Shown: positions 1,621 through 34,567 of the stretch, piece by piece | Numbering within the stretch: position 1 is the first letter of the stretch | How the letters are laid out: each line of letters begins with the position of its first letter | Virus record (IMG/VR): IMGVR_UViG_3300021478_000453 | Coordinates: 1,449-65,448 of that record | From: a virus | Lineage: Duplodnaviria; Caudoviricetes | Direction: 5' to 3' (one strand) | Length of the DNA: 64,000 nt | Notes under the pieces: generated by a model | What the model was told of the DNA's origin: nothing | Seen by the model: only the letters and a program-made list of their open reading frames with translations | Database searches by the model: none | Program-made: the position numbers and the translations under genes

Positions 1621-1829
1621 CTATGCGATCCTGCAACGCGCGCACGCCGAACATGACGCAGCCTCGGCTGATCGACCTCCAAGCCAGAACGATGCACGAC
1701 ATGACGCAAGTGATGCGAGATCGAATGCCAAAGCTCCTCGTTGTCGCGATTGCGGCGCAACTTCCGGAAATCCTCATACGCATGGCAAGTGTGACGATGG
1801 ATGGCGTCGTGATTGTTCCAACCCATCAT
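1617..1829 (-). CDS. small His/Arg-rich peptide (~70 aa)
   Basis: ATG overlaps the upstream stop (ATGA) and the stop overlaps the downstream GTG. Sequence MMGWNNHDAIHRHTCHAY...HSISHHLRHVVH. Confidence 0.5.
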   Translation of the reverse strand: MMGWNNHDAIHRHTCHAYEDFRKLRRNRDNEELWHSISHHLRHVVHRSGLEVDQPRLRHVRRARVAGSHR

Positions 1830-10100: not shown

Positions 10101-10649
10101 TCAGAGCATGAATATCCCAGCCGCGTTCCAGTTGATGGTGATGTTGCCGCCGTTGGGCTGCACCGGGAAGCCAGCACCTGTGTCGCAGTAGTAGATCAGC
10201 CGCCAAGTGCTGTTCAGACCGGCATTGCGTCGGTAGAGCACGAGGGCATCGACCGTGACAAAGCCCCCGGCCGTGGTTGTGACCTGTAGGAAGGTGGAAT
10301 CGTCCCCGTCAAAGACGGGACCTGGAAAGGTCCCCGCCCCGATATTGACGGTCGGCGTCGTGATCTGCTTGTCCAGCGGCCCCGGATTGGATTGGGGGAA
10401 AGGGCCGTTGAAGACAGCCAATTCATGCCCGCTCCCGACCGTCGGCGCCATGAGGAGATCGGTGTAGAACTGGTGTGCTGCGCTATAGGTGTAGCCGAGC
10501 GCCTGAGTGGGGGTGCCGACGTTCAGCAGCGCGCAGTAGACGGCGTTGTTGACATCGGTCTGATCGAGCGATTTGTTGGCCTGCGCCTCCTGTACCAGCG
10601 CCTGCTTCCATTTCGGATAGACAACATTTCCGGTTGGTCCAGTGCCCAT
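10101..10649 (-). CDS. virion structural protein (paralog B)
   Basis: Start MGTGPTGNVVYPKWKQ with RBS GAGG; paralog of 9633..10088. Confidence 0.7.
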   Translation of the reverse strand: MGTGPTGNVVYPKWKQALVQEAQANKSLDQTDVNNAVYCALLNVGTPTQALGYTYSAAHQFYTDLLMAPTVGSGHELAVFNGPFPQSNPGPLDKQITTPTVNIGAGTFPGPVFDGDDSTFLQVTTTAGGFVTVDALVLYRRNAGLNSTWRLIYYCDTGAGFPVQPNGGNITINWNAAGIFML

Positions 10650-27472: not shown

Positions 27473-28000
27473 TCAACGGCTTAATGGCTTGCTATCGTCC
27501 GTGGGTAACGGTGAGGGTAACGCCTTCCGTCGTTGGCGCTTGGCCGGCGTCACATCGATGGTCTTCGCCTCCCGCGCGGCGAGCATGGTCTTTATCGCCT
27601 CGATGGCTTGCTCGATCTGCTCATCGCTCATCCCCTTAACGCCAGCCGAATGGGTAACCTCGAGTTCCCGCGGCACGAGGAGAACCAGCATCTTGAGAAA
27701 CATCGCCGGCTGCGTTCGCATCACCTGATCGATGGCTTTGCGCCCTCCGCGGTCAAAAGCGGCCTGCAATTCCCGCATAGTGGAGAGATTTAGCGCTCGC
27801 CGGGTGCGGCCAGCGTCGGCGCCGGGGTTTCCAGGTAACCCCACCAAACCTCGAATACCGCGGTTCCTGCGCTTCGACCTAGCGCTTTTCGATTGGCTTT
27901 TGGCTGAGATCAGCTGGCCGGCGCTATCGCGTTCTCGCTTGGCGAGGTTAGCCTTAGCCTTAGCGGATGCGATGGCCCGTTGTTCGGGTGTCCATGCCAT
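27473..28000 (-). CDS. terminase small subunit-like protein
   Basis: GNPG...RRAL...ELQAAFDRGGRKAIDQV...PAMFLKMLVLLVPRELEV...MSDEQI...TIDVTP pattern. Confidence 0.6.
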   Translation of the reverse strand: MAWTPEQRAIASAKAKANLAKRERDSAGQLISAKSQSKSARSKRRNRGIRGLVGLPGNPGADAGRTRRALNLSTMRELQAAFDRGGRKAIDQVMRTQPAMFLKMLVLLVPRELEVTHSAGVKGMSDEQIEQAIEAIKTMLAAREAKTIDVTPAKRQRRKALPSPLPTDDSKPLSR

Positions 28001-28057
28001 GGCTGGAAGATGCCCCAAGGGTTAGGGATAAGGCTAGGGCATTCCCTTAGAGATTTG

Positions 28058-28453
28058 CTAGACCGCGGCCTTTCCATCCCCTGCCGCGGCGCCCTCTCGA
28101 CGCCTGGACCGTTGCCACATTCGACCGTTGCGGGTGGCTGTGAACTGGTCACCGAGGAGCGGCACGCGGTCGGCTGGGGTTACCTCTTGCCAGGGAGACC
28201 AGCCGGCGCCGTCGTCCCAAGGTGGCGCAGTGGTGGATTTGATCTTGCCTCCCTTCGCCAGGTACGCTTCGACGGCGGAAGCGCCTTCCTGTCGGAGATC
28301 AGCCTTGGAGGGACGTGGAGGGAGCGCGGCCCACCTCGCTGCCTCTCGCTCTCGCAGGTAGGCCTTTTCCTCGCGTTCGGCCCTTTCCTCCCGTCCCGCT
28401 CGCAGCCGCAGCCCGCGCTGCCTGTGCCTGTCCCAATCTCGACCGCTACTCAT
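28058..28453 (-). CDS. hypothetical protein
   Basis: 131 aa with VEAYLAKGGKI; RBS GAGGAG. Confidence 0.5.
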   Translation of the reverse strand: MSSGRDWDRHRQRGLRLRAGREERAEREEKAYLREREAARWAALPPRPSKADLRQEGASAVEAYLAKGGKIKSTTAPPWDDGAGWSPWQEVTPADRVPLLGDQFTATRNGRMWQRSRRREGAAAGDGKAAV

Positions 28454-28856
28454 CGCGCCGTGCTCCTCGACCGCGTTCCCCTTCGGAAGGCCCGCTTTGT
28501 TGCAGCGCTCGCCTGGAGCCGCGCGCGAGGCTCAAGTGATTCGCGCCGACCTCCAAATCAAAAATGATTTCAGCCGCTTAGGCTGTGGATAAGCCTAGAC
28601 CTAGCGGTGCGGCATGCGCGCACCCACGAGCCCTGGCGTTGTGGCTGTTCTGCAACAGGAACGATAGTTACAGACGCAACCAATTTTAGCGGATTTAGAC
28701 CACTTCTAAAGTTAATCAGTTTCATCGGTAACTACTTACGAAAACTTAATGTTGTGACGTATCAAAGGGATACTGGCAGCATACCATACTCGCATCTTGC
28801 CATGTTCTGCAAGATGTGCCCATGTTGCAAGCTTAACTCGCATATGGAGTCTGATC

Positions 28857-29501
28857 ATGAATTACTGGACGAAACTAACCGGCGACGCCTGGGGCGTCTC
28901 CTGTGATACCGAGCGCCAGCCCGGCGAGCAGGTGACCGTGACCACGAAGGCCGGGAAAACCTCCCTCGTGACGCTTGGCGAGCGGCAGAACCGGCTTGGA
29001 TATGTCTACGCCGTGGCGCGGCAGAACCCGGAGGCCCGCAGCGTCGGCGACCTTTCCGGCATTCTCGCCCTCTTCGACAAGGCGGCGCAGCATCTGAAGC
29101 GGCCGGCCATTGTGCTTGCGGTGCCCGAGGTGGGGCCGGCCGGCGCCCTCAATAGGGGCATGTGGACAATCCGGCTTTCCATTGCCGGCGGGCGCGCCAA
29201 GGTTCCTGGGAGCGTGACCGTGCTCGATGGCGAGCGCGGGGACGAGGGCCGCGATTGGCTAGGGCGCATCACGGTTGACGGCACCTACCAGCCCGGCCGC
29301 GCCGCCAATGGGCGCACCGAGGCGATCACCGCACGCCTACGCGCTTTCGCCGCCACGCCCGCGCTCGTGGCCAAGGACAGCGCCCGCCTCACCGGGCGCT
29401 GTTGCTTTTGCAACCTCGCATTGACCGACGAGCGCTCGACCGCCGTCGGCTATGGCGCGACCTGTGCGGACCATTACGGCCTGCCGTGGGGCGCCCGATG
29501 A
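28857..29501 (+). CDS. DUF6011-like Zn-finger early protein
   Basis: C-terminal GRCCFCNLALTDERSTAVGYGATCA; start follows GGAGTCTGA. Confidence 0.7.
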   Translation: MNYWTKLTGDAWGVSCDTERQPGEQVTVTTKAGKTSLVTLGERQNRLGYVYAVARQNPEARSVGDLSGILALFDKAAQHLKRPAIVLAVPEVGPAGALNRGMWTIRLSIAGGRAKVPGSVTVLDGERGDEGRDWLGRITVDGTYQPGRAANGRTEAITARLRAFAATPALVAKDSARLTGRCCFCNLALTDERSTAVGYGATCADHYGLPWGAR

Positions 29502-29680
29502 CCGTCGTTCTTTACAACCGCGGCACCTATTGGGGCGCCTTCTTCTACGGCTTCGCGCGCATGCCCGAAGACGTGGAAATCCCGCTCCCGTTTCACGGCA
29601 GCGCCCCCCTCGCCAAGGTGAAGGCCGACCTCGCCCGGCGCTTCCCGAACGCGACCGTTCGCGAGGGCACATGGTCATGA
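29498..29680 (+). CDS. hypothetical protein (60 aa)
   Basis: ATGA coupling at both ends. Confidence 0.55.
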   Translation: MTVVLYNRGTYWGAFFYGFARMPEDVEIPLPFHGSAPLAKVKADLARRFPNATVREGTWS

Positions 29681-29754
29681 GCGCGCATCACCTCGACCTC
29701 GCCATGCTCGCCATCTCGCTGGCCGTGATCGCCTTGATTGTGGCGCTGCATTGA
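29677..29754 (+). CDS. 25-aa hydrophobic peptide
   Basis: MSAHHLDLAMLAISLAVIALIVALH; the stop abuts the hammerhead. Confidence 0.45.
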   Translation: MSAHHLDLAMLAISLAVIALIVALH

Positions 29755-29755
29755 A

Positions 29756-29809
29756 GCTCGAAACCGGGCGCTTGCCCGGTCGCGGCGTGACGCGCCGCCT
29801 GATGAGAGC
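29756..29809 (+). ncRNA. type II hammerhead ribozyme
   Basis: GCTC-GAAA-C-CGGGC(GCTT)GCCCG-G-TC^-GCGGCG(TGACG)CGCCGC-CTGATGA-GAGC: all core nucleotides and three stems present; predicted cleavage after C29781. Confidence 0.92.
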
Positions 29810-29826
29810 AAAGGAGTCTAATCATC

Positions 29827-31398
29827 ATGACCAAGAGCCAAACCATGGCGGCTGACATCGCCGCTCTGATCCGCGCTCGCAATCCGCTTCTATGGATTGT
29901 GACCAAGGAAGAAGCGAGAACCGAGGGCTACCTCATCGAGAGCGCCGCGAGCGCCGGCTATGCGCCCATCTTTTGGGACTGCGCGGCTGGCGTGACCGAC
30001 GCAACCGGGCGCCGGGTGCCGCTGGGCGGTAACGATCCGGGCGAGACGCTCGACGCGATCCGCGCCCAGGCCGAGAGCGGCAACGATCGCCGCGTGTGGA
30101 TCATGCGCGACCTCCCCGCCTGGCTTGACGGTCCGGTGGGCATCGCCACGAAACGCGCGCTGCGCAACTTCTGCCGCAATCCTGGCCGCGGGGCGAGCGC
30201 GCAAACCGTGGTTATCCTTACGCCTTCCGGAGACGTGCCTCCCGAGCTCGCCGGCCATGCGACCGTTATTGATTGGCCGCTGCCCGACCGCGAGGAGATT
30301 GCCGCGCTCTTGGACGTTGCGGTGCGCAATGGTGGCGACAAGATCGCCGCGCCGACCAACGGCACGAGGGACGCCGCGGTGGATGCTGCCATTGGGCTAT
30401 CGGGCGAGGAGGCGGAGTCCTGCTACGCGCGCAGCCTCGTACAGCTCCGCAAGATCGACCCCGTGCTTGTGGGAGGTGAAAAGAAGCGCATCATCACCCG
30501 CGAGCGCGTCTTGGAATGGATGGAGCCCTTGCCCGGAGGCTTCGACTCTGTCGGCGGTCTCGACGTAATCAAGGGATGGGTAACAACGCGCAAGACAGCC
30601 TACGGTCCGCGCGCCCGCGCCTACGGCTTGCCAACACCTAAAGGCATTTTCTTAGTTGGCTTTTCCGGGTGCGGCAAAACCTTCATCGCCAAGGCGATTG
30701 CGTGGGCGCTGGGACAGCTCCCGTTACTCCGCTATGACGCCGGCGCCCTCAAATCCAAGTTCGTGGGCGAGAGCGAGCAACTTACCCGCAAGGCATTTCG
30801 CACGATTGAGGCGGTGGGCCCTTGCGTCGTTTTGATTGACGAAATCGAAAAGGCGCTTGCCGGCGCAACGCAAGGCGCCGCCGATGGTGGCGTTAGTGCC
30901 GACGCCTTGGGCGCCCTCCTGACGTGGATGCAGGAGCGCACCTCACCGGCTTTCATCGTGGCTACCGCAAACGATGTGAGCAACTTGCCTCCCGAGCTTT
31001 TGCGCAAAGGCAGATGGGACGAACTTTTCTTTGTTGATCTGCCGACCGTGACGGAACGCGCGCAAGTGCTATTCGCCACGCTCCTAACCCACAAGCGCAA
31101 TCCCAATGGCGTGGACCTGGGCGCCATCGCCGATGCAACGGAAGGCTTTAGCGGTGCCGAGATTGCTTCACTCGTACCCGAAGCGATGTTTAGCGCCTTT
31201 GCCGATGGCGAGCGCGAGCTTGCGACCGACGACCTAATCAGGGCCGCCGAGTCGGTGGTCCCGCTGTCCAAGACCAGCGCAGAGAAGCTCAACGCCTTGC
31301 GCGCATGGTCGAAGGGCCGCACCCGGCCGGCAACCACGCCCTTGGGCGCTCGCGAAACCGTTGCCCAGGGGCGCGTCCTGGACCTCGGCATTGATTGA
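29827..31398 (+). CDS. Ycf46/SpoVK-like AAA+ ATPase
   Basis: GFSGCGKT, LIDEIEK, ATAND...PPELLRKGRWDELFFVDLP; degenerate N-terminal AAA domain. Confidence 0.9.
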   Translation: MTKSQTMAADIAALIRARNPLLWIVTKEEARTEGYLIESAASAGYAPIFWDCAAGVTDATGRRVPLGGNDPGETLDAIRAQAESGNDRRVWIMRDLPAWLDGPVGIATKRALRNFCRNPGRGASAQTVVILTPSGDVPPELAGHATVIDWPLPDREEIAALLDVAVRNGGDKIAAPTNGTRDAAVDAAIGLSGEEAESCYARSLVQLRKIDPVLVGGEKKRIITRERVLEWMEPLPGGFDSVGGLDVIKGWVTTRKTAYGPRARAYGLPTPKGIFLVGFSGCGKTFIAKAIAWALGQLPLLRYDAGALKSKFVGESEQLTRKAFRTIEAVGPCVVLIDEIEKALAGATQGAADGGVSADALGALLTWMQERTSPAFIVATANDVSNLPPELLRKGRWDELFFVDLPTVTERAQVLFATLLTHKRNPNGVDLGAIADATEGFSGAEIASLVPEAMFSAFADGERELATDDLIRAAESVVPLSKTSAEKLNALRAWSKGRTRPATTPLGARETVAQGRVLDLGID

Positions 31399-31399
31399 G

Positions 31400-31457
31400 G
31401 CTTGCAGCCTAGGCGCCGCCCTCCACAAGCGGCGCCTAATCGGCAAGCTACCGCTTG
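31400..31457 (+). promoter_or_regulatory. long hairpin with internal loop (processing or switch element)
   Basis: GCTTGC-AGCC-TAGGCGCCGC-loop-GCGGCGCCTA-ATCG-GCAAGC followed by TACC-GCTTG. Confidence 0.55.
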
Positions 31458-31483
31458 ACCGTATCCTGGCAAGGTGCCATGAT
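31455..31483 (+). promoter_or_regulatory. sigma70-like promoter
   Basis: TTGACC-N17-CATGAT. Confidence 0.5.
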
Positions 31484-31509
31484 AGCAAATCGCAACAGGA
31501 GTCTGATAC

Positions 31510-32292
31510 ATGCAAGTTTCACCCCTACGCCCCGGATTGCTGGTAGCCGTGCGCACCAGCATCAAGGGAAACTGCCGCTACAACGTCACCGAGATCGAAG
31601 CCGACCACCTCACCGAGGAGGGCGCACGCCGCGCCCGCTGGGAAACCGAGCGCGAGATTACCGACCCCGCAGAGCACGAGCGCGCGACCAAGGCCCGCAG
31701 CAAAGCCCGGTCCGTGCTCGCCAGCGTTTGCGCGCATAGCGATTTCGGCTTGCTGTGCCCGCTCGACAAGAAGGGCGCCTTTGAGCGCGCCGAGCAAGAC
31801 GCCTTGGCCATCGTCGCCGATTTCAACGCGACGGCGCAGGTTTCGCGTCTGGTCTTTAACGTGCTCACCGGCGAGGTAATGCAAGACGATGCCCGCGCCA
31901 TCCGCGCAATCAACTCCGAGATGCGCGACCTCATGGAGAGCATGGAGAACGGTCTCCGCAATCTCGACGTGGAGGCGGTACGCGAAGCGGCCAACAAAGC
32001 CCGCAGCGTTTCGCAGATGCTGGAGCCTGGCACGCAGGAGCGGGTTGAGAAGGCAATCGCGGTTGCCCGTTCTGCCGCGCGCCAGATCGTGAAGGCGGCC
32101 GAGGAGGGCGCGGCCGAAATCGACCGCGCTGCAATCGCGCGGATCGCCGAAGCCCGCACGTCATTCCTCGACCTGGACGACAACGGGCAAGCCATCGGCG
32201 AGGTGGCCGCACCGGGGCGCGCCGTCGATTTCGAGCCTGTGCCCGAGATCAAGGCCGCGGCGCCCGTGCAGCCGCGCATGTTCGACCTGTGA
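31510..32292 (+). CDS. helical hypothetical protein (AAA+ partner)
   Basis: 260 aa; GGAGTCTGA RBS; ends RTSFLDLDD...GRAVDFE...RMFDL. Confidence 0.7.
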   Translation: MQVSPLRPGLLVAVRTSIKGNCRYNVTEIEADHLTEEGARRARWETEREITDPAEHERATKARSKARSVLASVCAHSDFGLLCPLDKKGAFERAEQDALAIVADFNATAQVSRLVFNVLTGEVMQDDARAIRAINSEMRDLMESMENGLRNLDVEAVREAANKARSVSQMLEPGTQERVEKAIAVARSAARQIVKAAEEGAAEIDRAAIARIAEARTSFLDLDDNGQAIGEVAAPGRAVDFEPVPEIKAAAPVQPRMFDL

Positions 32293-32302
32293 GGGTGAAC
32301 CC

Positions 32303-32647
32303 ATGCCCTGCGATACGAGGTTGAAACCTAAGCAAACAATCTCCGAGCGCGCGGCCGAGGTACGCGAGGCGACGGCACGTCTAGCCGTCGCCATCGCCGC
32401 CGGCCGGGTGCGCGTCAAGATCGGCCCGCAAGGCGCAATCGCCTTTGAGAACTGGGACACACAATCGCGCGACGGGATAACCGACGCTTGTGCCTATCGC
32501 CGCATCATGGCGACGGGCTCAGCGATGGCCCGCATGGCGATAGCCAAGGCCGAGCAACTCGCCGGCCGCGGCGTGAACAAGCAAGCGGTTGCCCACGGGC
32601 ATCACTCGCACGATGGGGGCGCCACATGGCACAGCCACAAGGGCTAA
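32303..32647 (+). CDS. hypothetical protein with His-rich C-terminus (AAA+ partner)
   Basis: MPCDT...GPQGAIAF..W...RDGITDACAYRR...HGHHSHDGGATWHSH. Confidence 0.7.
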   Translation: MPCDTRLKPKQTISERAAEVREATARLAVAIAAGRVRVKIGPQGAIAFENWDTQSRDGITDACAYRRIMATGSAMARMAIAKAEQLAGRGVNKQAVAHGHHSHDGGATWHSHKG

Positions 32648-32885
32648 ATCCGCATCACCCCGATTGTGTGTGTGGTTGCAACGATCCGCGCACCGACCGC
32701 GAGGCCCGCATGGTCGAAGCACACAAGGCCGGCCGCCTCGCAGCGGCTGAGGTATTCGCCGAGGCTTGCAGGAAGGCAATGAACCGCTGGTCTGACGATC
32801 CCGAGGTTCAGTTTTCCTACTTGGCCGGGCTCTTTGGCGAGCTTCGACGCATCGCAACGCGGAAGCAGAACAAGGGATTCCGGCT

Positions 32886-33101
32886 ATGACCTTCTACAGC
32901 GTCCATCGCACCACCGATGGCGGAAGCAGCGCCGGCTATGAGTGGTTCACAAGCGAGCGCGCGGCAAAGAAGGCCGCCGCACAATGGCGCGTCGGCACGC
33001 CCGAGGAGTCGGCGACCGTCAACCGTTGGAAGATCAAGCCGACGAAACGGGGAATCCTGCGCGCCCTGAACATTCACGCAAGCCACCCGGATAACGGTTG
33101 A
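32886..33101 (+). CDS. hypothetical protein
   Basis: 71 aa in the early operon. Confidence 0.55.
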   Translation: MTFYSVHRTTDGGSSAGYEWFTSERAAKKAAAQWRVGTPEESATVNRWKIKPTKRGILRALNIHASHPDNG

Positions 33102-33388
33102 ACATGACCATCCGCACGGAGCCGCTCAACCAAACCGAGCGCGACCTAAACAAGTACGCGAGCGGCAAGGCTTACACCCTCATGCGCGACGTGAAGCAAG
33201 CCTTTGAGATCGCCGGCCTAGGACCGGCGCACGCTGGCGCCTGTTGCGGCGCCTTGTTCCTACGGCTGGCGGCGACTATCGCCGCGGCCGCCGGCCACGA
33301 CAAGTTAAGTTTTATCCGCTGGTGCTCGGAATGCTTCGACCTCGCCAGCGACGACGACCAACCATCGAAGCCAACCAAAGGAGTCTGA
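33098..33388 (+). CDS. hypothetical protein
   Basis: 96 aa in the early operon. Confidence 0.5.
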   Translation: MNMTIRTEPLNQTERDLNKYASGKAYTLMRDVKQAFEIAGLGPAHAGACCGALFLRLAATIAAAAGHDKLSFIRWCSECFDLASDDDQPSKPTKGV

Positions 33389-33390
33389 CA

Positions 33391-33657
33391 ATGAAAAGCT
33401 GGAAACCTGAAGTGATCGCCGACAGCACCGGCAAGTGGTGCGGCAATCAACTGCGCTTTGAAACCAGGAGGGAAGCGGAGGAGAACGTGGCCGACCTCGC
33501 CGGCCGCTGGTTCGCGGTAACGGAGACGCGCGTTGTCGAGAGCGACGAGCCCGTGAACTACACCTACCACAACCGCGAACTGCGCCCGGTTGAGGCCGCT
33601 CGCGATCCTGATGTGGGATTCGGTCCTGTGTTTGATCGGCTTGACCGCAACGGCTGA
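33391..33657 (+). CDS. conserved phage hypothetical protein
   Basis: MKSWKPEVIADSTGKWCGNQLRFET..EAE...DL..RW..V...RV.ESDEPVNY; GGAGTCTGA RBS. Confidence 0.7.
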   Translation: MKSWKPEVIADSTGKWCGNQLRFETRREAEENVADLAGRWFAVTETRVVESDEPVNYTYHNRELRPVEAARDPDVGFGPVFDRLDRNG

Positions 33658-33726
33658 CGTTTCGGCCGGACCGCTGGAGTCGTTTCGACTCTGGCGGTCT
33701 CCCGAAGCGCCAATAGCGGACGCTTC
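33658..33726 (+). promoter_or_regulatory. long hairpin with an alternative pairing arm
   Basis: 23-bp interrupted stem with G-U pairs on the + strand; GAAGCG can also pair with the downstream CGCTTC. Confidence 0.6.
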
Positions 33727-33743
33727 AAGCAAGGAGTCTGACA

Positions 33744-34007
33744 ATGAGCAAACGCAAACTTTACGCCGTTGATCTGAAACTATGTGCGACGGCTTACATC
33801 AAGGCCCGCAATTCAGCGGAGGCGATGAGCATTGCCAAATCGCTCGCGAACCAAAGCCCCAGCCTTCTCGACAGCGAGGGCGACATCCCAGTGAGCGGCT
33901 TGCAGTACCGCGACCCCGCCCTCCCCGATGTGAGCCTATCTCCCGCTATGACCATCCACGGAGTCTGGGAAGGCGGCACGTTCGAACTGATGGAACACGG
34001 AATCTAG
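33744..34007 (+). CDS. hypothetical protein
   Basis: 87 aa; GGAGTCTGA RBS. Confidence 0.65.
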   Translation: MSKRKLYAVDLKLCATAYIKARNSAEAMSIAKSLANQSPSLLDSEGDIPVSGLQYRDPALPDVSLSPAMTIHGVWEGGTFELMEHGI

Positions 34008-34009
34008 CC

Positions 34010-34099
34010 ATGACCATCACCCTAAGCGACATCGCACTCGTGACGGCGTGCCTCGCGTTTCTCATTTCGTTGGCAACGCTCGTCATCACGATGAGATAA
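34010..34099 (+). CDS. 29-aa hydrophobic peptide
   Basis: MTITLSDIALVTACLAFLISLATLVITMR. Confidence 0.45.
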   Translation: MTITLSDIALVTACLAFLISLATLVITMR

Positions 34100-34111
34100 G
34101 GAGTCTGAGCC

Positions 34112-34567
34112 ATGACACTGCAAGAGCTGTTTGATTTTAGCACCAAGCAAGCCGCCGTGATGTTCAACAAAACCGGAAGCGTGATGCCCATGTGGCACGC
34201 CCATCCGGCCAGCGGCCACGATCTTGTCATCGCCACGCCTTGGGAGAGCGCCGAGGATAAACGGATCATCACGGCCAAGCTGCGCGAGCTGTTCAAGCAT
34301 GAGCGCGTCAAGTGCTACGCCTTCATGGGCGAGGCGTGGAGCGCCGCCACTCCCACAATGTCCGAGGTGCGCAAGTGGGCTGGCAATTTGGAGCACCACC
34401 CCGACCGCCGCGAAATCCTCGCCATCCACGCCGAGGACGACGAGGGCCACGCAATCATGGGCTGGTATTACATCCTGCGCCCGGAGCACGGCCCGCCGAA
34501 ACTCTCGCCGCTGATGATAAGCCAAGCGACCGAGAACAAGGGCCAGCTGATGGGGATGCTGCGATGA
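34112..34567 (+). CDS. hypothetical protein
   Basis: 151 aa with YAFMGEAW...HHPDRREIL; GGAGTCTGA RBS. Confidence 0.7.
   Translation: MTLQELFDFSTKQAAVMFNKTGSVMPMWHAHPASGHDLVIATPWESAEDKRIITAKLRELFKHERVKCYAFMGEAWSAATPTMSEVRKWAGNLEHHPDRREILAIHAEDDEGHAIMGWYYILRPEHGPPKLSPLMISQATENKGQLMGMLR

What the first reader, a model, noticed from the sequence alone, without database searches (positions are those of the whole stretch)
29756..29826. Intact type II hammerhead ribozyme wedged between a peptide ORF and the AAA+ ATPase ribosome-binding site
Seen: the full catalytic core (CUGAUGA, GAAA, GUC cleavage triplet) with stems GCUC/GAGC, ACCGGGC/GCCCGGU and GCGGCG/CGCCGC, ending 3 nt before the GGAGTCTAA RBS. 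Known: hammerheads self-cleave after the NUH triplet, leave a 5'-OH, and occur in phage intergenic regions. Inference: the phage cuts its early polycistron 45 nt upstream of the ATPase start without needing a protein. This would give the ATPase operon a hairpin-capped 5'-OH end and uncouple it from upstream genes; ribosomes stopping at 29754 may influence folding.
Basis: partly seen in the sequence, partly recalled or inferred. Interest (0 to 1): 0.85.

Follow-up and report, generated by a model that had tools for sequence, protein, structure and literature searches.

The report
Hammerhead ribozyme before phage ATPase gene
A small self-cutting RNA of an already known kind (a type II hammerhead ribozyme) sits between a stop codon and the ribosome-binding site of an ATPase gene in an uncultured soil phage, where it most likely cuts the long message into separately stable pieces.

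Summary
Rfam's Hammerhead_II model scores it 31.2 bits, below its cut-off of 37. A model built from 23 similar phage hammerheads, without this sequence, scores it 65.3 bits; the next best site in the window scores 7.4.

It belongs to a compact form with no pseudoknot: a 4-bp stem II flanked by A, and a 6-bp stem I with a U-N-A-N-G loop. This form is common in phage contigs, covaries strongly and nearly always lies between a stop codon and the next RBS.

In ATPase relatives the same slot holds:
- another type II hammerhead (L158);
- a candidate type III hammerhead (L099);
- a decayed copy (L174);
- in one clade, a different conserved bulged hairpin.

Self-cleavage and mRNA processing are inferred, not shown. 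Perreault et al. proposed this reading in 2011, and this scan has reported phage hammerheads many times on other DNA. Verdict: a genuine but ordinary new member of a known kind. The slot exchange is the only modestly new point.

The parts
29677..29754 (+). 25-codon hydrophobic peptide ORF. Its stop codon (29752-29754) lies 1 nt before the ribozyme.
   Evidence: ATG overlaps the stop of ORF 29402-29680. GC at codon positions 1/2/3 is 0.65/0.35/0.85, like the neighbouring genes. No PHROG family.
29755..29755 (+). A flanking the open end of stem II on the 5' side
   Evidence: The 5' flank is A in 46 of 49 compact hammerheads, whatever the register of the stop codon.
29756..29759 (+). Stem II, 5' strand (GCUC). 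C29759 is C11.1.
   Evidence: Pairs with 29806-29809. Stem II is exactly 4 bp in 45 of 49 compact members.
29760..29762 (+). Core G12 A13 A14
   Evidence: Invariant in alignments A1 and A3.
29763..29780 (+). Stem III hairpin: A15.1-U16.1 plus 6 bp, with loop GCUU 29770-29773
   Evidence: Pairs covary in the family.
29781..29781 (+). C17. The predicted cut is between 29781 and 29782, leaving a 2',3'-cyclic phosphate on 29781 and a 5'-OH on 29782.
   Evidence: Position follows from the hammerhead consensus. The chemistry is established knowledge of the class (also stated in PMC8782182). Cleavage was not tested here.
29782..29798 (+). Stem I hairpin: 6 bp plus loop UGACG (29788-29792). It would become the 5' end of the ATPase message.
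   Evidence: The loop fits the U-N-A-N-G pattern of the compact class (U1 in 44 of 45, A3 in 35 of 45, G5 in 41 of 45).
29799..29805 (+). Core C3-A9 (CUGAUGA)
29806..29809 (+). Stem II, 3' strand (GAGC). G29806 is G10.1.
29813..29821 (+). Ribosome-binding motif GGAGTCTAA of the ATPase gene
29822..29827 (+). UCAUCA, complementary to UGAUGA of the core (29800-29805). A possible competing or post-cleavage hairpin with the RBS in its loop.
   Evidence: This pairing forms in the 194-nt fold. Shuffle P for a complement of 6 nt or more is 0.02, but there is no enrichment across the family. Low confidence.
29827..31398 (+). AAA+ ATPase gene (523 aa), the first gene after the cut
   Evidence: PF00004 E 3.7e-26 and AAA_lid_3; phrog_8638 E 2e-160.
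31399..31457 (+). Bulged 'arm-swap' hairpin directly after the ATPase stop codon. Likely the 3' boundary element of the ATPase message.
Evidence: z -4.65. No Rfam family.
33658..33726 (+). Second arm-swap hairpin. It shares its arms (CGUUUCG / CGAAGCG / CGCUUC) with the element that fills the hammerhead's slot in one clade of relatives.

Best explanation
Window 29756-29809 encodes a genuine type II hammerhead ribozyme of a compact form without a pseudoknot. It is transcribed on the + strand with the genes around it.

Once the 54 nt have left the polymerase, and while no terminating ribosome covers its 5' half, it folds into the three-way junction and cuts itself between C29781 and G29782.

- Upstream piece: carries the DUF6011 protein gene, a 92-codon ORF and the 25-codon peptide ORF. 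It ends in the stem III hairpin with a 2',3'-cyclic phosphate.
- Downstream piece: starts with a 5'-OH directly on the stem I hairpin. It has a 45-nt leader and carries the ATPase gene. That gene is bounded at its 3' end by a second structured element at 31399-31457.

The likely effect is that the ATPase message gets its own stability and a leader free of upstream context. This works like an RNase III site in T7 early RNA or a synthetic ribozyme insulator, but needs no host enzyme.

Shown: the motif, its family membership by sequence and structure, covariation, and the positional rule (stop codon, then ribozyme, then RBS). Inferred: co-transcription, self-cleavage, and the effect on expression.
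For: Core and fold:
- All core bases and the three helices are present, with no mispair next to the core.
- Rfam Hammerhead_II matches end to end (model positions 1-66) at 31.2 bits.
- R2 was built from 23 compact hammerheads. None of them was retrieved with window-derived patterns, and the window was excluded. It scores the site 65.3 bits, against 7.4 for the next best site in the window.

Family evidence:
- Two pattern scans of IMG/VR, each fixing one stem only, returned 59 and 15 loci, giving 73 distinct elements. The stems that the patterns left free still pair.
- R1 found 165 matches in 729,013 bases. On the 137 distinct rows, 94.7% of cells pair, against 36-43% when partners are slid, and 15 of 17 pairs change on both sides.
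- On the MAFFT alignment A3, 98.8% of cells pair and 13 of 15 pairs change on both sides.
- The window fits the compact signature at every position examined.

Position:
- In 50 of the 64 elements for which an upstream ORF end was found (of 73 examined), that ORF ends within 5 nt of the ribozyme.
- The gap from the ribozyme's 3' end to the next start codon has a median of 19 nt (compact form) or 26 nt (long form).
- Here the gaps are 1 nt and 17 nt.

Same slot in ATPase relatives:
- L158 has an intact type II hammerhead 13 nt before its ATPase ATG, with compensatory changes in stems II and III.
- L099 has a candidate type III hammerhead 20 nt before its ATG.
- L110 has one directly after the ATPase stop codon, and L004 has one a single small gene upstream.

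Literature:
- Type II hammerheads flank genes in prophages and were proposed to process long phage transcripts (PMC3088659, passages).
- Three type II hammerheads near phage genes cleave in vivo in D. vulgaris (PMC8782182, passages).
Against: - The Rfam score is below the curated cut-off (31.2 against 37).
- The loop I to 3'-tail pseudoknot that most type II hammerheads use is absent. Only 3 bp are possible (GAC 29789-29791 with GUC 29816-29818, read). In the ribozymes tested by Perreault et al., losing the pseudoknot cut activity more than 100-fold. Speed at cellular Mg2+ is therefore uncertain.
- In the 194-nt context fold, stem II is not formed and the core pairs with UCAUCA at 29822-29827.
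- The element is not conserved at this slot. Among 62 distinct upstream regions of ATPase relatives, only 2 carry a hammerhead, and L174 has a copy that lost GAAA and stem III. It is therefore dispensable in most relatives.
- There is no evidence of transcription, co-transcription or cleavage.
- The scans for sigma-70 promoters and terminators around the site are at chance level and say nothing either way.
Confidence: 0.65

Rival explanations
1. The motif is a hammerhead by descent but no longer cuts, or cuts too slowly to matter. Its two GC-rich hairpins would then act only as passive structure between genes, as stability barriers or nuclease sites.
For: - It has no pseudoknot and sits in a weak context fold.
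- A clearly decayed copy exists in the same slot in L174.
- Most relatives do without a hammerhead there.
Against: - No core base is changed and no pair next to the core is broken.
- The non-core signature of the compact class (the flanking A's, a stem II of exactly 4 bp, and loop positions U1/A3/G5) is also intact. That would not be expected of a drifting relic.
Confidence: 0.12
2. The ribozyme is active but conditional. Cleavage would be gated by translation, either by the ribosome terminating at 29752-29754 that covers its 5' half, or by the UGAUGA/UCAUCA pairing that ribosome binding at the ATPase start would open. It would then be a regulatory switch rather than a constitutive cutter.
For: - A gap of 5 nt or less between stop codon and ribozyme is the rule in the family.
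- The 6-bp complement to the core overlaps the start codon, with shuffle P 0.02.
- In L081, three hammerheads carry a downstream complement that follows the base at core position 7 (CAUCAG with CUGAUGA, CGUCAG with CUGACGA).
Against: - Downstream complements to the core are not enriched in the family (5 nt or more in 11 of 96, against 7 of 88 and 11 of 93 in control windows).
- Tight spacing may only reflect the compactness of phage genomes.
Confidence: 0.15
3. The hammerhead is a selfish or hitch-hiking intergenic cassette that spreads among phages and brings no benefit to this gene's expression.
For: - Its distribution among ATPase relatives is patchy and the tree is unresolved.
- Near-identical stems occur in many unrelated phage contigs.
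- The genes next to it vary: 9 of 10 downstream proteins have no Pfam family, 1 has pentapeptide repeats, and none is an ATPase.
Against: - All hits are sense to the flanking genes and placed precisely between a stop codon and an RBS.
- Three different structured elements recur at the ATPase boundary, which points to selection on the slot.
Confidence: 0.07
4. It is a chance match to the hammerhead consensus in GC-rich DNA.
For: The Rfam score is below gathering. The control genomes also give sub-threshold hits.
Against: - 65.3 bits, E about 1e-16, with a model that excludes it.
- 0 descriptor hits in 10 shuffles of 511,564 bases.
- An intact counterpart in the same slot in L158.
Confidence: 0.01

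Closest known systems
Type II hammerhead ribozymes of bacteria and prophages (Perreault et al. 2011, PMC3088659; Rfam RF02276)
   Same: Same catalytic core, same permutation (stems I and III closed, stem II open), same setting between phage genes on the sense strand, and the same proposed role of cutting long phage transcripts into gene-length messages.
   Different: It lacks the pseudoknot between loop I and the 3' tail that defines the Rfam consensus. It has a shorter stem I (6 bp plus a 5-nt loop) and a longer stem II of fixed 4 bp flanked by A's. It scores below Rfam's cut-off. In 15 hammerhead-rich loci, 40 matches of my model coincided with none of Rfam's threshold hits; Rfam gave one hit, at another site. 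I could not see the paper's figures or supplements, so this compact form may already be in its alignments.
Clustered hammerheads flanking single genes in prophages, and the three D. vulgaris type II hammerheads shown to cut in vivo (PMC3088659; PMC8782182)
   Same: A ribozyme at a gene boundary in phage DNA. Many of the contigs fetched here carry 5-7 copies.
   Different: This 65-kb genome has only one. The ATPase gene is instead flanked by the hammerhead on its 5' side and a different hairpin on its 3' side.
RNase III processing sites between early genes of phage T7 (recalled, not checked in a paper here)
   Same: Works alike: a structured element between a stop codon and the next RBS, whose cleavage leaves hairpin-ended, separately stable messages.
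   Different: T7 needs the host enzyme, whereas a hammerhead needs only Mg2+. The end chemistry also differs (5'-OH and cyclic phosphate, against 5'-phosphate and 3'-OH). It is not a member of that group.
Synthetic ribozyme insulators such as RiboJ (recalled, not checked in a paper here)
   Same: A hammerhead placed just upstream of an RBS removes the upstream RNA, so that translation no longer depends on upstream context.
   Different: Those are engineered type III ribozymes derived from a plant satellite RNA. This one is natural, type II and in a phage.

Membership tests
Hammerhead ribozyme (class) | Conserved core C3 U4 G5 A6 N7 G8 A9 and G12 A13 A14 | tested here: met
   CUGAUGA at 29799-29805 and GAA at 29760-29762.
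Hammerhead ribozyme (class) | A15.1-U16.1 pair followed by H17 (not G) at the cut site, and a G10.1-C11.1 pair closing stem II | tested here: met
   A29763-U29780, C29781, G29806-C29759.
Hammerhead ribozyme (class) | Three helices radiating from the core, with no mispair next to the core (the acceptance rule of Perreault 2011) | tested here: met
   The minimum-energy fold gives stems of 4, 7 and 7 pairs. The descriptor scan accepts it.
Hammerhead ribozyme (class) | Helices supported by covariation in related sequences | tested here: met
   A3: 98.8% of cells paired, 13 of 15 pairs with changes on both sides. A2: 94.7% paired, against 36-43% with partners slid. L158, in the same slot, has compensatory changes.
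Hammerhead ribozyme (class) | Mg2+-dependent self-cleavage after H17 | not testable with these tools
   No biochemical tool is available, and no RNA run holds the sequence.
Type II hammerhead (Rfam RF02276) | Permutation with stems I and III closed by loops and stem II open | tested here: met
Type II hammerhead (Rfam RF02276) | Score at or above the family's gathering threshold (37 bits) | tested here: not met
   31.2 bits; no hit at gathering. This is a curation threshold, not a biological feature. The full-length alignment and core identity stand.
Type II hammerhead (Rfam RF02276) | Pseudoknot of 4 bp or more between loop I and the tail 3' of stem II (present in a majority of members, so not strictly defining) | tested here: not met
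   Only GAC 29789-29791 with GUC 29816-29818 can pair, which is 3 bp (read).
Compact type II form without a pseudoknot (defined here) | Stem II of exactly 4 bp flanked by A on both sides; stem I of 6 bp with a 5-nt loop U-N-A-N-G | tested here: met
   A29755, GCUC/GAGC, A29810, and loop UGACG.

The most novel reading that the evidence does not exclude
The gene boundary just upstream of this phage ATPase gene may be a slot under selection for an RNA-processing element, whichever element fills it.

Across relatives the slot is filled by a compact type II hammerhead (window, L158), by a differently permuted candidate type III hammerhead (L099), or, in one well-supported clade, by a conserved bulged 'arm-swap' hairpin that is not in Rfam. 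That hairpin has a paired stem, a 3x2 internal loop, a covarying upper stem, and a second copy of the 5' arm just before the RBS.

If so, the arm-swap hairpin is an undescribed processing site, either an RNase III-type substrate or a new self-cleaver. After a cut it would refold into a 5' hairpin before the RBS, giving the same product geometry as the hammerhead.

A second, smaller point: the compact hammerhead form, capped by A's and lacking a pseudoknot, may use an undescribed tertiary contact, and it is largely invisible to Rfam at its threshold.
Probability: 0.3. Interest if true: 0.55.

Novelty: new member of a known kind. Interest (0 to 1): 0.27.

Why it matters
In itself it matters little. 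Type II hammerheads between phage genes, and the idea that they cut long phage transcripts, have been in print since 2011. This scan has also reported such elements on many other genomes.

Three points have some value:
1. This compact form falls below Rfam's threshold, so routine annotation probably undercounts phage hammerheads.
2. The rule that the ribozyme lies between a stop codon and the next RBS is quantified here on 73 elements.
3. The same gene slot carries two hammerhead permutations, a decayed copy or an unrelated conserved hairpin in different relatives. This is natural-exchange evidence that the function is 'make a transcript boundary here'. It bears on the still open question of what bacterial and phage hammerheads are for (2019 review PMC6765202), and it offers a testable pair of constructs.

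Tried and rejected
- Rfam at gathering on the whole window gave nothing. The hammerhead only appears with the E-value threshold.
- A second sub-threshold Rfam hit (G000:C1:8132-8224, minus strand; 16.9 bits) lies inside coding sequence and has no GAAA or stem arrangement. Rejected as chance.
- DNA search against known phages found only weak ATPase similarity to mycobacteriophages and nothing about the ribozyme. Protein searches placed the terminase no closer than 42% to any isolate and the ATPase at 49%. Host unknown.
- The 18 IMG/VR and 80 metagenome ATPase loci contain no close relative (at most 66% identity), so a fine-scale orthologous alignment of the intergenic region was not possible.
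- The small ORF between the L004 hammerhead and its ATPase gene is not similar to the window's ORF 29402-29680.
- The look-up of sequencing runs listed no RNA holder; the single holder is a DNA soil metagenome.
- The sigma-70 promoter and terminator scan of 27500-34500 was at chance level.
- A generic script to find arm-swap hairpins was far too permissive in GC-rich DNA (239 hits) and was dropped for motif-anchored searches.
- MAFFT misaligned the longer arm-swap copies, so I built no model of that element.
- Rfam with the E-value threshold found no family for the arm-swap hairpins and no hammerhead family for the L099 type III candidate. That candidate rests on my descriptor and its fold only.
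- I tested whether complements to the core downstream of the ribozyme are a family feature. They are not enriched.
- A pseudoknot between loop I and the 3' tail was looked for by eye; only 3 bp can form.
- The ATPase tree did not resolve whether the hammerhead-bearing loci form one lineage. L099, L106 and the window sit on long branches.
- Structure prediction, complex prediction, the search for homologous proteins and the protein atlas were not used because no protein question was open.
- The supplements and figures of Perreault 2011 could not be seen. They may already list this compact form.

Full report
WHAT IS THERE. The window is nearly the whole of a 65,448-base IMG/VR virus record that CheckV rates 94% complete. 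It has 63% G+C. A soil metagenome holds the same sequence.

At 29756-29809 on the + strand the sequence reads, in order:
- stem II 5' strand GCUC;
- GAAA;
- a 7-pair hairpin that opens with the A of GAAA and closes with U;
- C29781;
- a 6-pair hairpin with loop UGACG;
- CUGAUGA;
- stem II 3' strand GAGC.

The 54 nt fold on their own into that three-way junction. The element starts 1 nt after the stop codon of a 25-codon hydrophobic ORF whose codon-position G+C looks coding. It ends 3 nt before GGAGTCTAA and 17 nt before the ATG of a 523-aa AAA+ ATPase gene.

IS IT MORE THAN CHANCE. Rfam finds nothing in the window at its curated thresholds. With the E-value threshold, Hammerhead_II aligns end to end at 31.2 bits. 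That is below the cut-off of 37, with E 9.2e-5 on 251 nt and 5.8e-6 for the genome.

To get an independent measure I collected relatives in steps:
- Two pattern scans of IMG/VR, each fixing only one of the window's stems plus core motifs, returned 59 and 15 loci. These gave 73 distinct elements, and the stems not fixed by the pattern still pair.
- A model built from 26 compact ones (R1, which includes the window) found 165 matches in 729,013 bases of 76 sources.
- From the matches that the patterns had not retrieved, I aligned 23 with MAFFT (A3) and built R2 without the window.

R2 scores the window site at 65.3 bits, E about 1.7e-16. The next best site in the window scores 7.4 bits. A hand-written descriptor for all three permutations gave 6 hits in 511,564 bases and none in ten shuffled copies.

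COVARIATION. On A3, 98.8% of cells are standard pairs, against 28-41% when partners are slid, and 13 of 15 pairs change on both sides. On the 137 distinct rows of the model-fitted alignment A2, 94.7% pair, against 36-43% slid. The family is therefore a real structured RNA, and the window's copy fits it.

WHICH KIND OF TYPE II. The collected elements fall into two architectures.
- The long form has a 21-24-nt stem I region and a 3-bp stem II. Its 3' tail is complementary to loop I. This is the pseudoknotted consensus of Perreault et al. and of Rfam.
- The compact form has a 17-nt stem I region and a 4-bp stem II.

On 49 compact sequences:
- stem II is exactly 4 bp in 45;
- the base 5' of it is A in 46, and the base 3' of it is A in 35;
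- loop I has 5 nt in 45, with U first in 44 of those 45, A third in 35 and G last in 41.

The window matches all of these and can form only a 3-bp loop-tail pairing. The conserved A's and loop bases suggest a tertiary contact other than the pseudoknot; that is inference.

In 15 hammerhead-rich loci (139,181 bases) Rfam at gathering reported one Hammerhead_II, at a site my model did not list. None of R1's 40 matches there reached Rfam's threshold.

POSITION RULE. For the 73 elements, the nearest upstream ORF of 60 codons or more ends a median of 2-3 nt before the ribozyme. It ends within 5 nt in 50 of the 64 cases where such an ORF was found. The next start codon follows after a median of 19 nt (compact) or 26 nt (long).

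For the window, the script picked the longer ORF that ends 75 nt upstream. With the 25-codon ORF the gap is 1 nt. The downstream genes vary: of 10 examined, 9 have no Pfam family and one has pentapeptide repeats.

THE SAME SLOT IN RELATIVES. ATPase homologues (38-66% identity) were fetched from IMG/VR (18 loci) and from metagenomes (80 loci). None is close.
- Among 62 distinct upstream regions of 120 nt or more, L158 has an intact compact type II hammerhead 13 nt before its ATG. It has the same stem I, but stems II and III are changed in a compensating way.
- L099 has a full type III arrangement 20 nt before its ATG, with an extra A between A9 and G10.1. It folds as the expected junction, but no Rfam hammerhead model reports it, so it is a candidate only.
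- L174 keeps stem I (with the window's loop UGACG), CUGAUGA and the stem II 3' strand, but has lost GAAA and stem III. It is a decayed copy.
- L004 (the same contig as L098) has a hammerhead one small gene upstream, and L110 has one directly after the ATPase stop codon.
- Eight regions carry a different element: L003, L005, L010, L014, L097, L107, L113 and L172. It is a hairpin with conserved arms (GUUUCG / CGAAGC), a mostly 3x2 internal loop and an upper stem whose sequence varies while pairing is kept. It is followed by a second copy of the 5' arm just before the RBS.
- L007 and L008 have a hairpin with a T run.

The window itself has two copies of this 'arm-swap' hairpin.

On a tree of the first 250 ATPase residues, all eight arm-swap loci fall in one clade of 15 rows (support 100/98). 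The hammerhead-bearing loci lie outside it in an unresolved part.

HOW IT MOST LIKELY WORKS. The ribozyme is on the sense strand of a block of co-directional, closely packed genes. It has neither a promoter-like nor a terminator-like site beside it beyond chance.

The best reading is self-cleavage between 29781 and 29782. This leaves the upstream message ending in the stem III hairpin with a cyclic phosphate. The ATPase message begins with a 5'-OH on the stem I hairpin, with a 45-nt leader that carries the RBS. With the hairpin at 31399-31457 as its 3' end, the ATPase gene would be set free as a single-gene message capped by structure at both ends.

Products that end in hairpins, and a 5'-OH that the 5'-monophosphate-dependent decay enzymes recognise poorly, should be more stable. 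That is established knowledge of bacterial mRNA decay, recalled and not tested here. The slot exchange with a bulged hairpin, which looks like an RNase III-type substrate (a recalled resemblance to T7 sites), supports 'transcript boundary' as the selected function.

WHAT SPEAKS AGAINST.
- There are no expression or cleavage data.
- The score is below Rfam's threshold.
- There is no pseudoknot.
- In a 194-nt context, the predicted fold pairs the core with UCAUCA at 29822-29827 instead of forming stem II. That complement has a shuffle probability of 0.02, but such complements are not enriched in the family.
- The element is missing from the slot in most relatives and has decayed in one.

WHAT IS KNOWN. 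From the passages I read, Perreault et al. 2011 (PMC3088659):
- described natural type II hammerheads as common in bacteria;
- noted that several often flank genes in prophages;
- proposed processing of long phage transcripts;
- noted that many representatives lack the known tertiary contacts.

The 2019 review PMC6765202 (passages) still calls the biological role unsettled. PMC8782182 (passages) showed three type II hammerheads cutting in vivo. This scan has already reported phage hammerheads on many other genomes. The finding is therefore a new member of a known kind. The compact signature and the slot exchange are the only modestly new observations, and I could not check the 2011 supplements for the former.

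Noticed in passing
window 31399-31457 and 33658-33726; L003 2905-2957; L010 2918-2969; L014 2917-2964; L005 2902-2945; L007 575-629; also L097, L107, L113, L172: A lineage-specific 'arm-swap' hairpin family: conserved arms, a mostly 3x2 internal loop, a covarying upper stem, then a second copy of the 5' arm before the RBS. Each copy starts 0-9 nt after a stop codon. All fold with z -4.5 to -5.6, and none matches an Rfam family. Outside the ATPase-phage group, the anchored motif search gave only hits that looked spurious.
   Followed up: partly
window 29800-29805 with 29822-29827: The core bases UGAUGA are perfectly complementary to UCAUCA, which overlaps the ATPase start codon. The hairpin they form would hold the RBS in a 16-nt loop. 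It could compete with the active fold or form after cleavage.
   Followed up: partly
L081, three hammerheads (2222-2290, 1262-1334, 1741-1811, minus strand): A 6-nt complement to the core lies directly after stem II and follows the base at core position 7: CAUCAG with CUGAUGA, and CGUCAG with CUGACGA. This looks like a compensated alternative hairpin in that phage.
   Followed up: no
L174 620-672: A decayed hammerhead in the slot before an ATPase homologue. Stem I, the core strand and the stem II 3' strand are kept, while GAAA and stem III are gone.
   Followed up: partly
L099 1911-1965: A candidate type III hammerhead with an extra A between A9 and G10.1, 20 nt before an ATPase homologue and preceded by an 8-bp hairpin. 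Rfam does not report it.
   Followed up: partly
L036 10013-10085 (minus strand): An HDV-like ribozyme (Rfam RF02682, 49.8 bits, above its cut-off) lies about 350 nt from a compact hammerhead at 10430-10490 in the same phage contig.
   Followed up: no
L040, L070, L074, L080, L051, L028: Dense hammerhead arrays. For example, L040 has 7 matches in its 1,645 bases and L080 has 6 in 4.3 kb.
   Followed up: no
L094 273-340 and 3905-3977; nine sequences of A3: Natural core variants within well-paired compact hammerheads: CCGAUGA (position 4), a GUA cleavage triplet, and CUGACGA in 9 of 49.
   Followed up: no
L018/L019 and L115, just before the ATPase start: Only the second arm plus the RBS (CGCTTCAAGGAGCAAC) remains, without the hairpin. 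The arm copy may therefore be part of a conserved leader in its own right.
   Followed up: no
window 31455-31483 (+): A promoter-like site (TTGACC, 17 nt, CATGAT, with TG) starts inside the last arm of the hairpin after the ATPase gene. The number of such sites in the region is at chance level.
   Followed up: no
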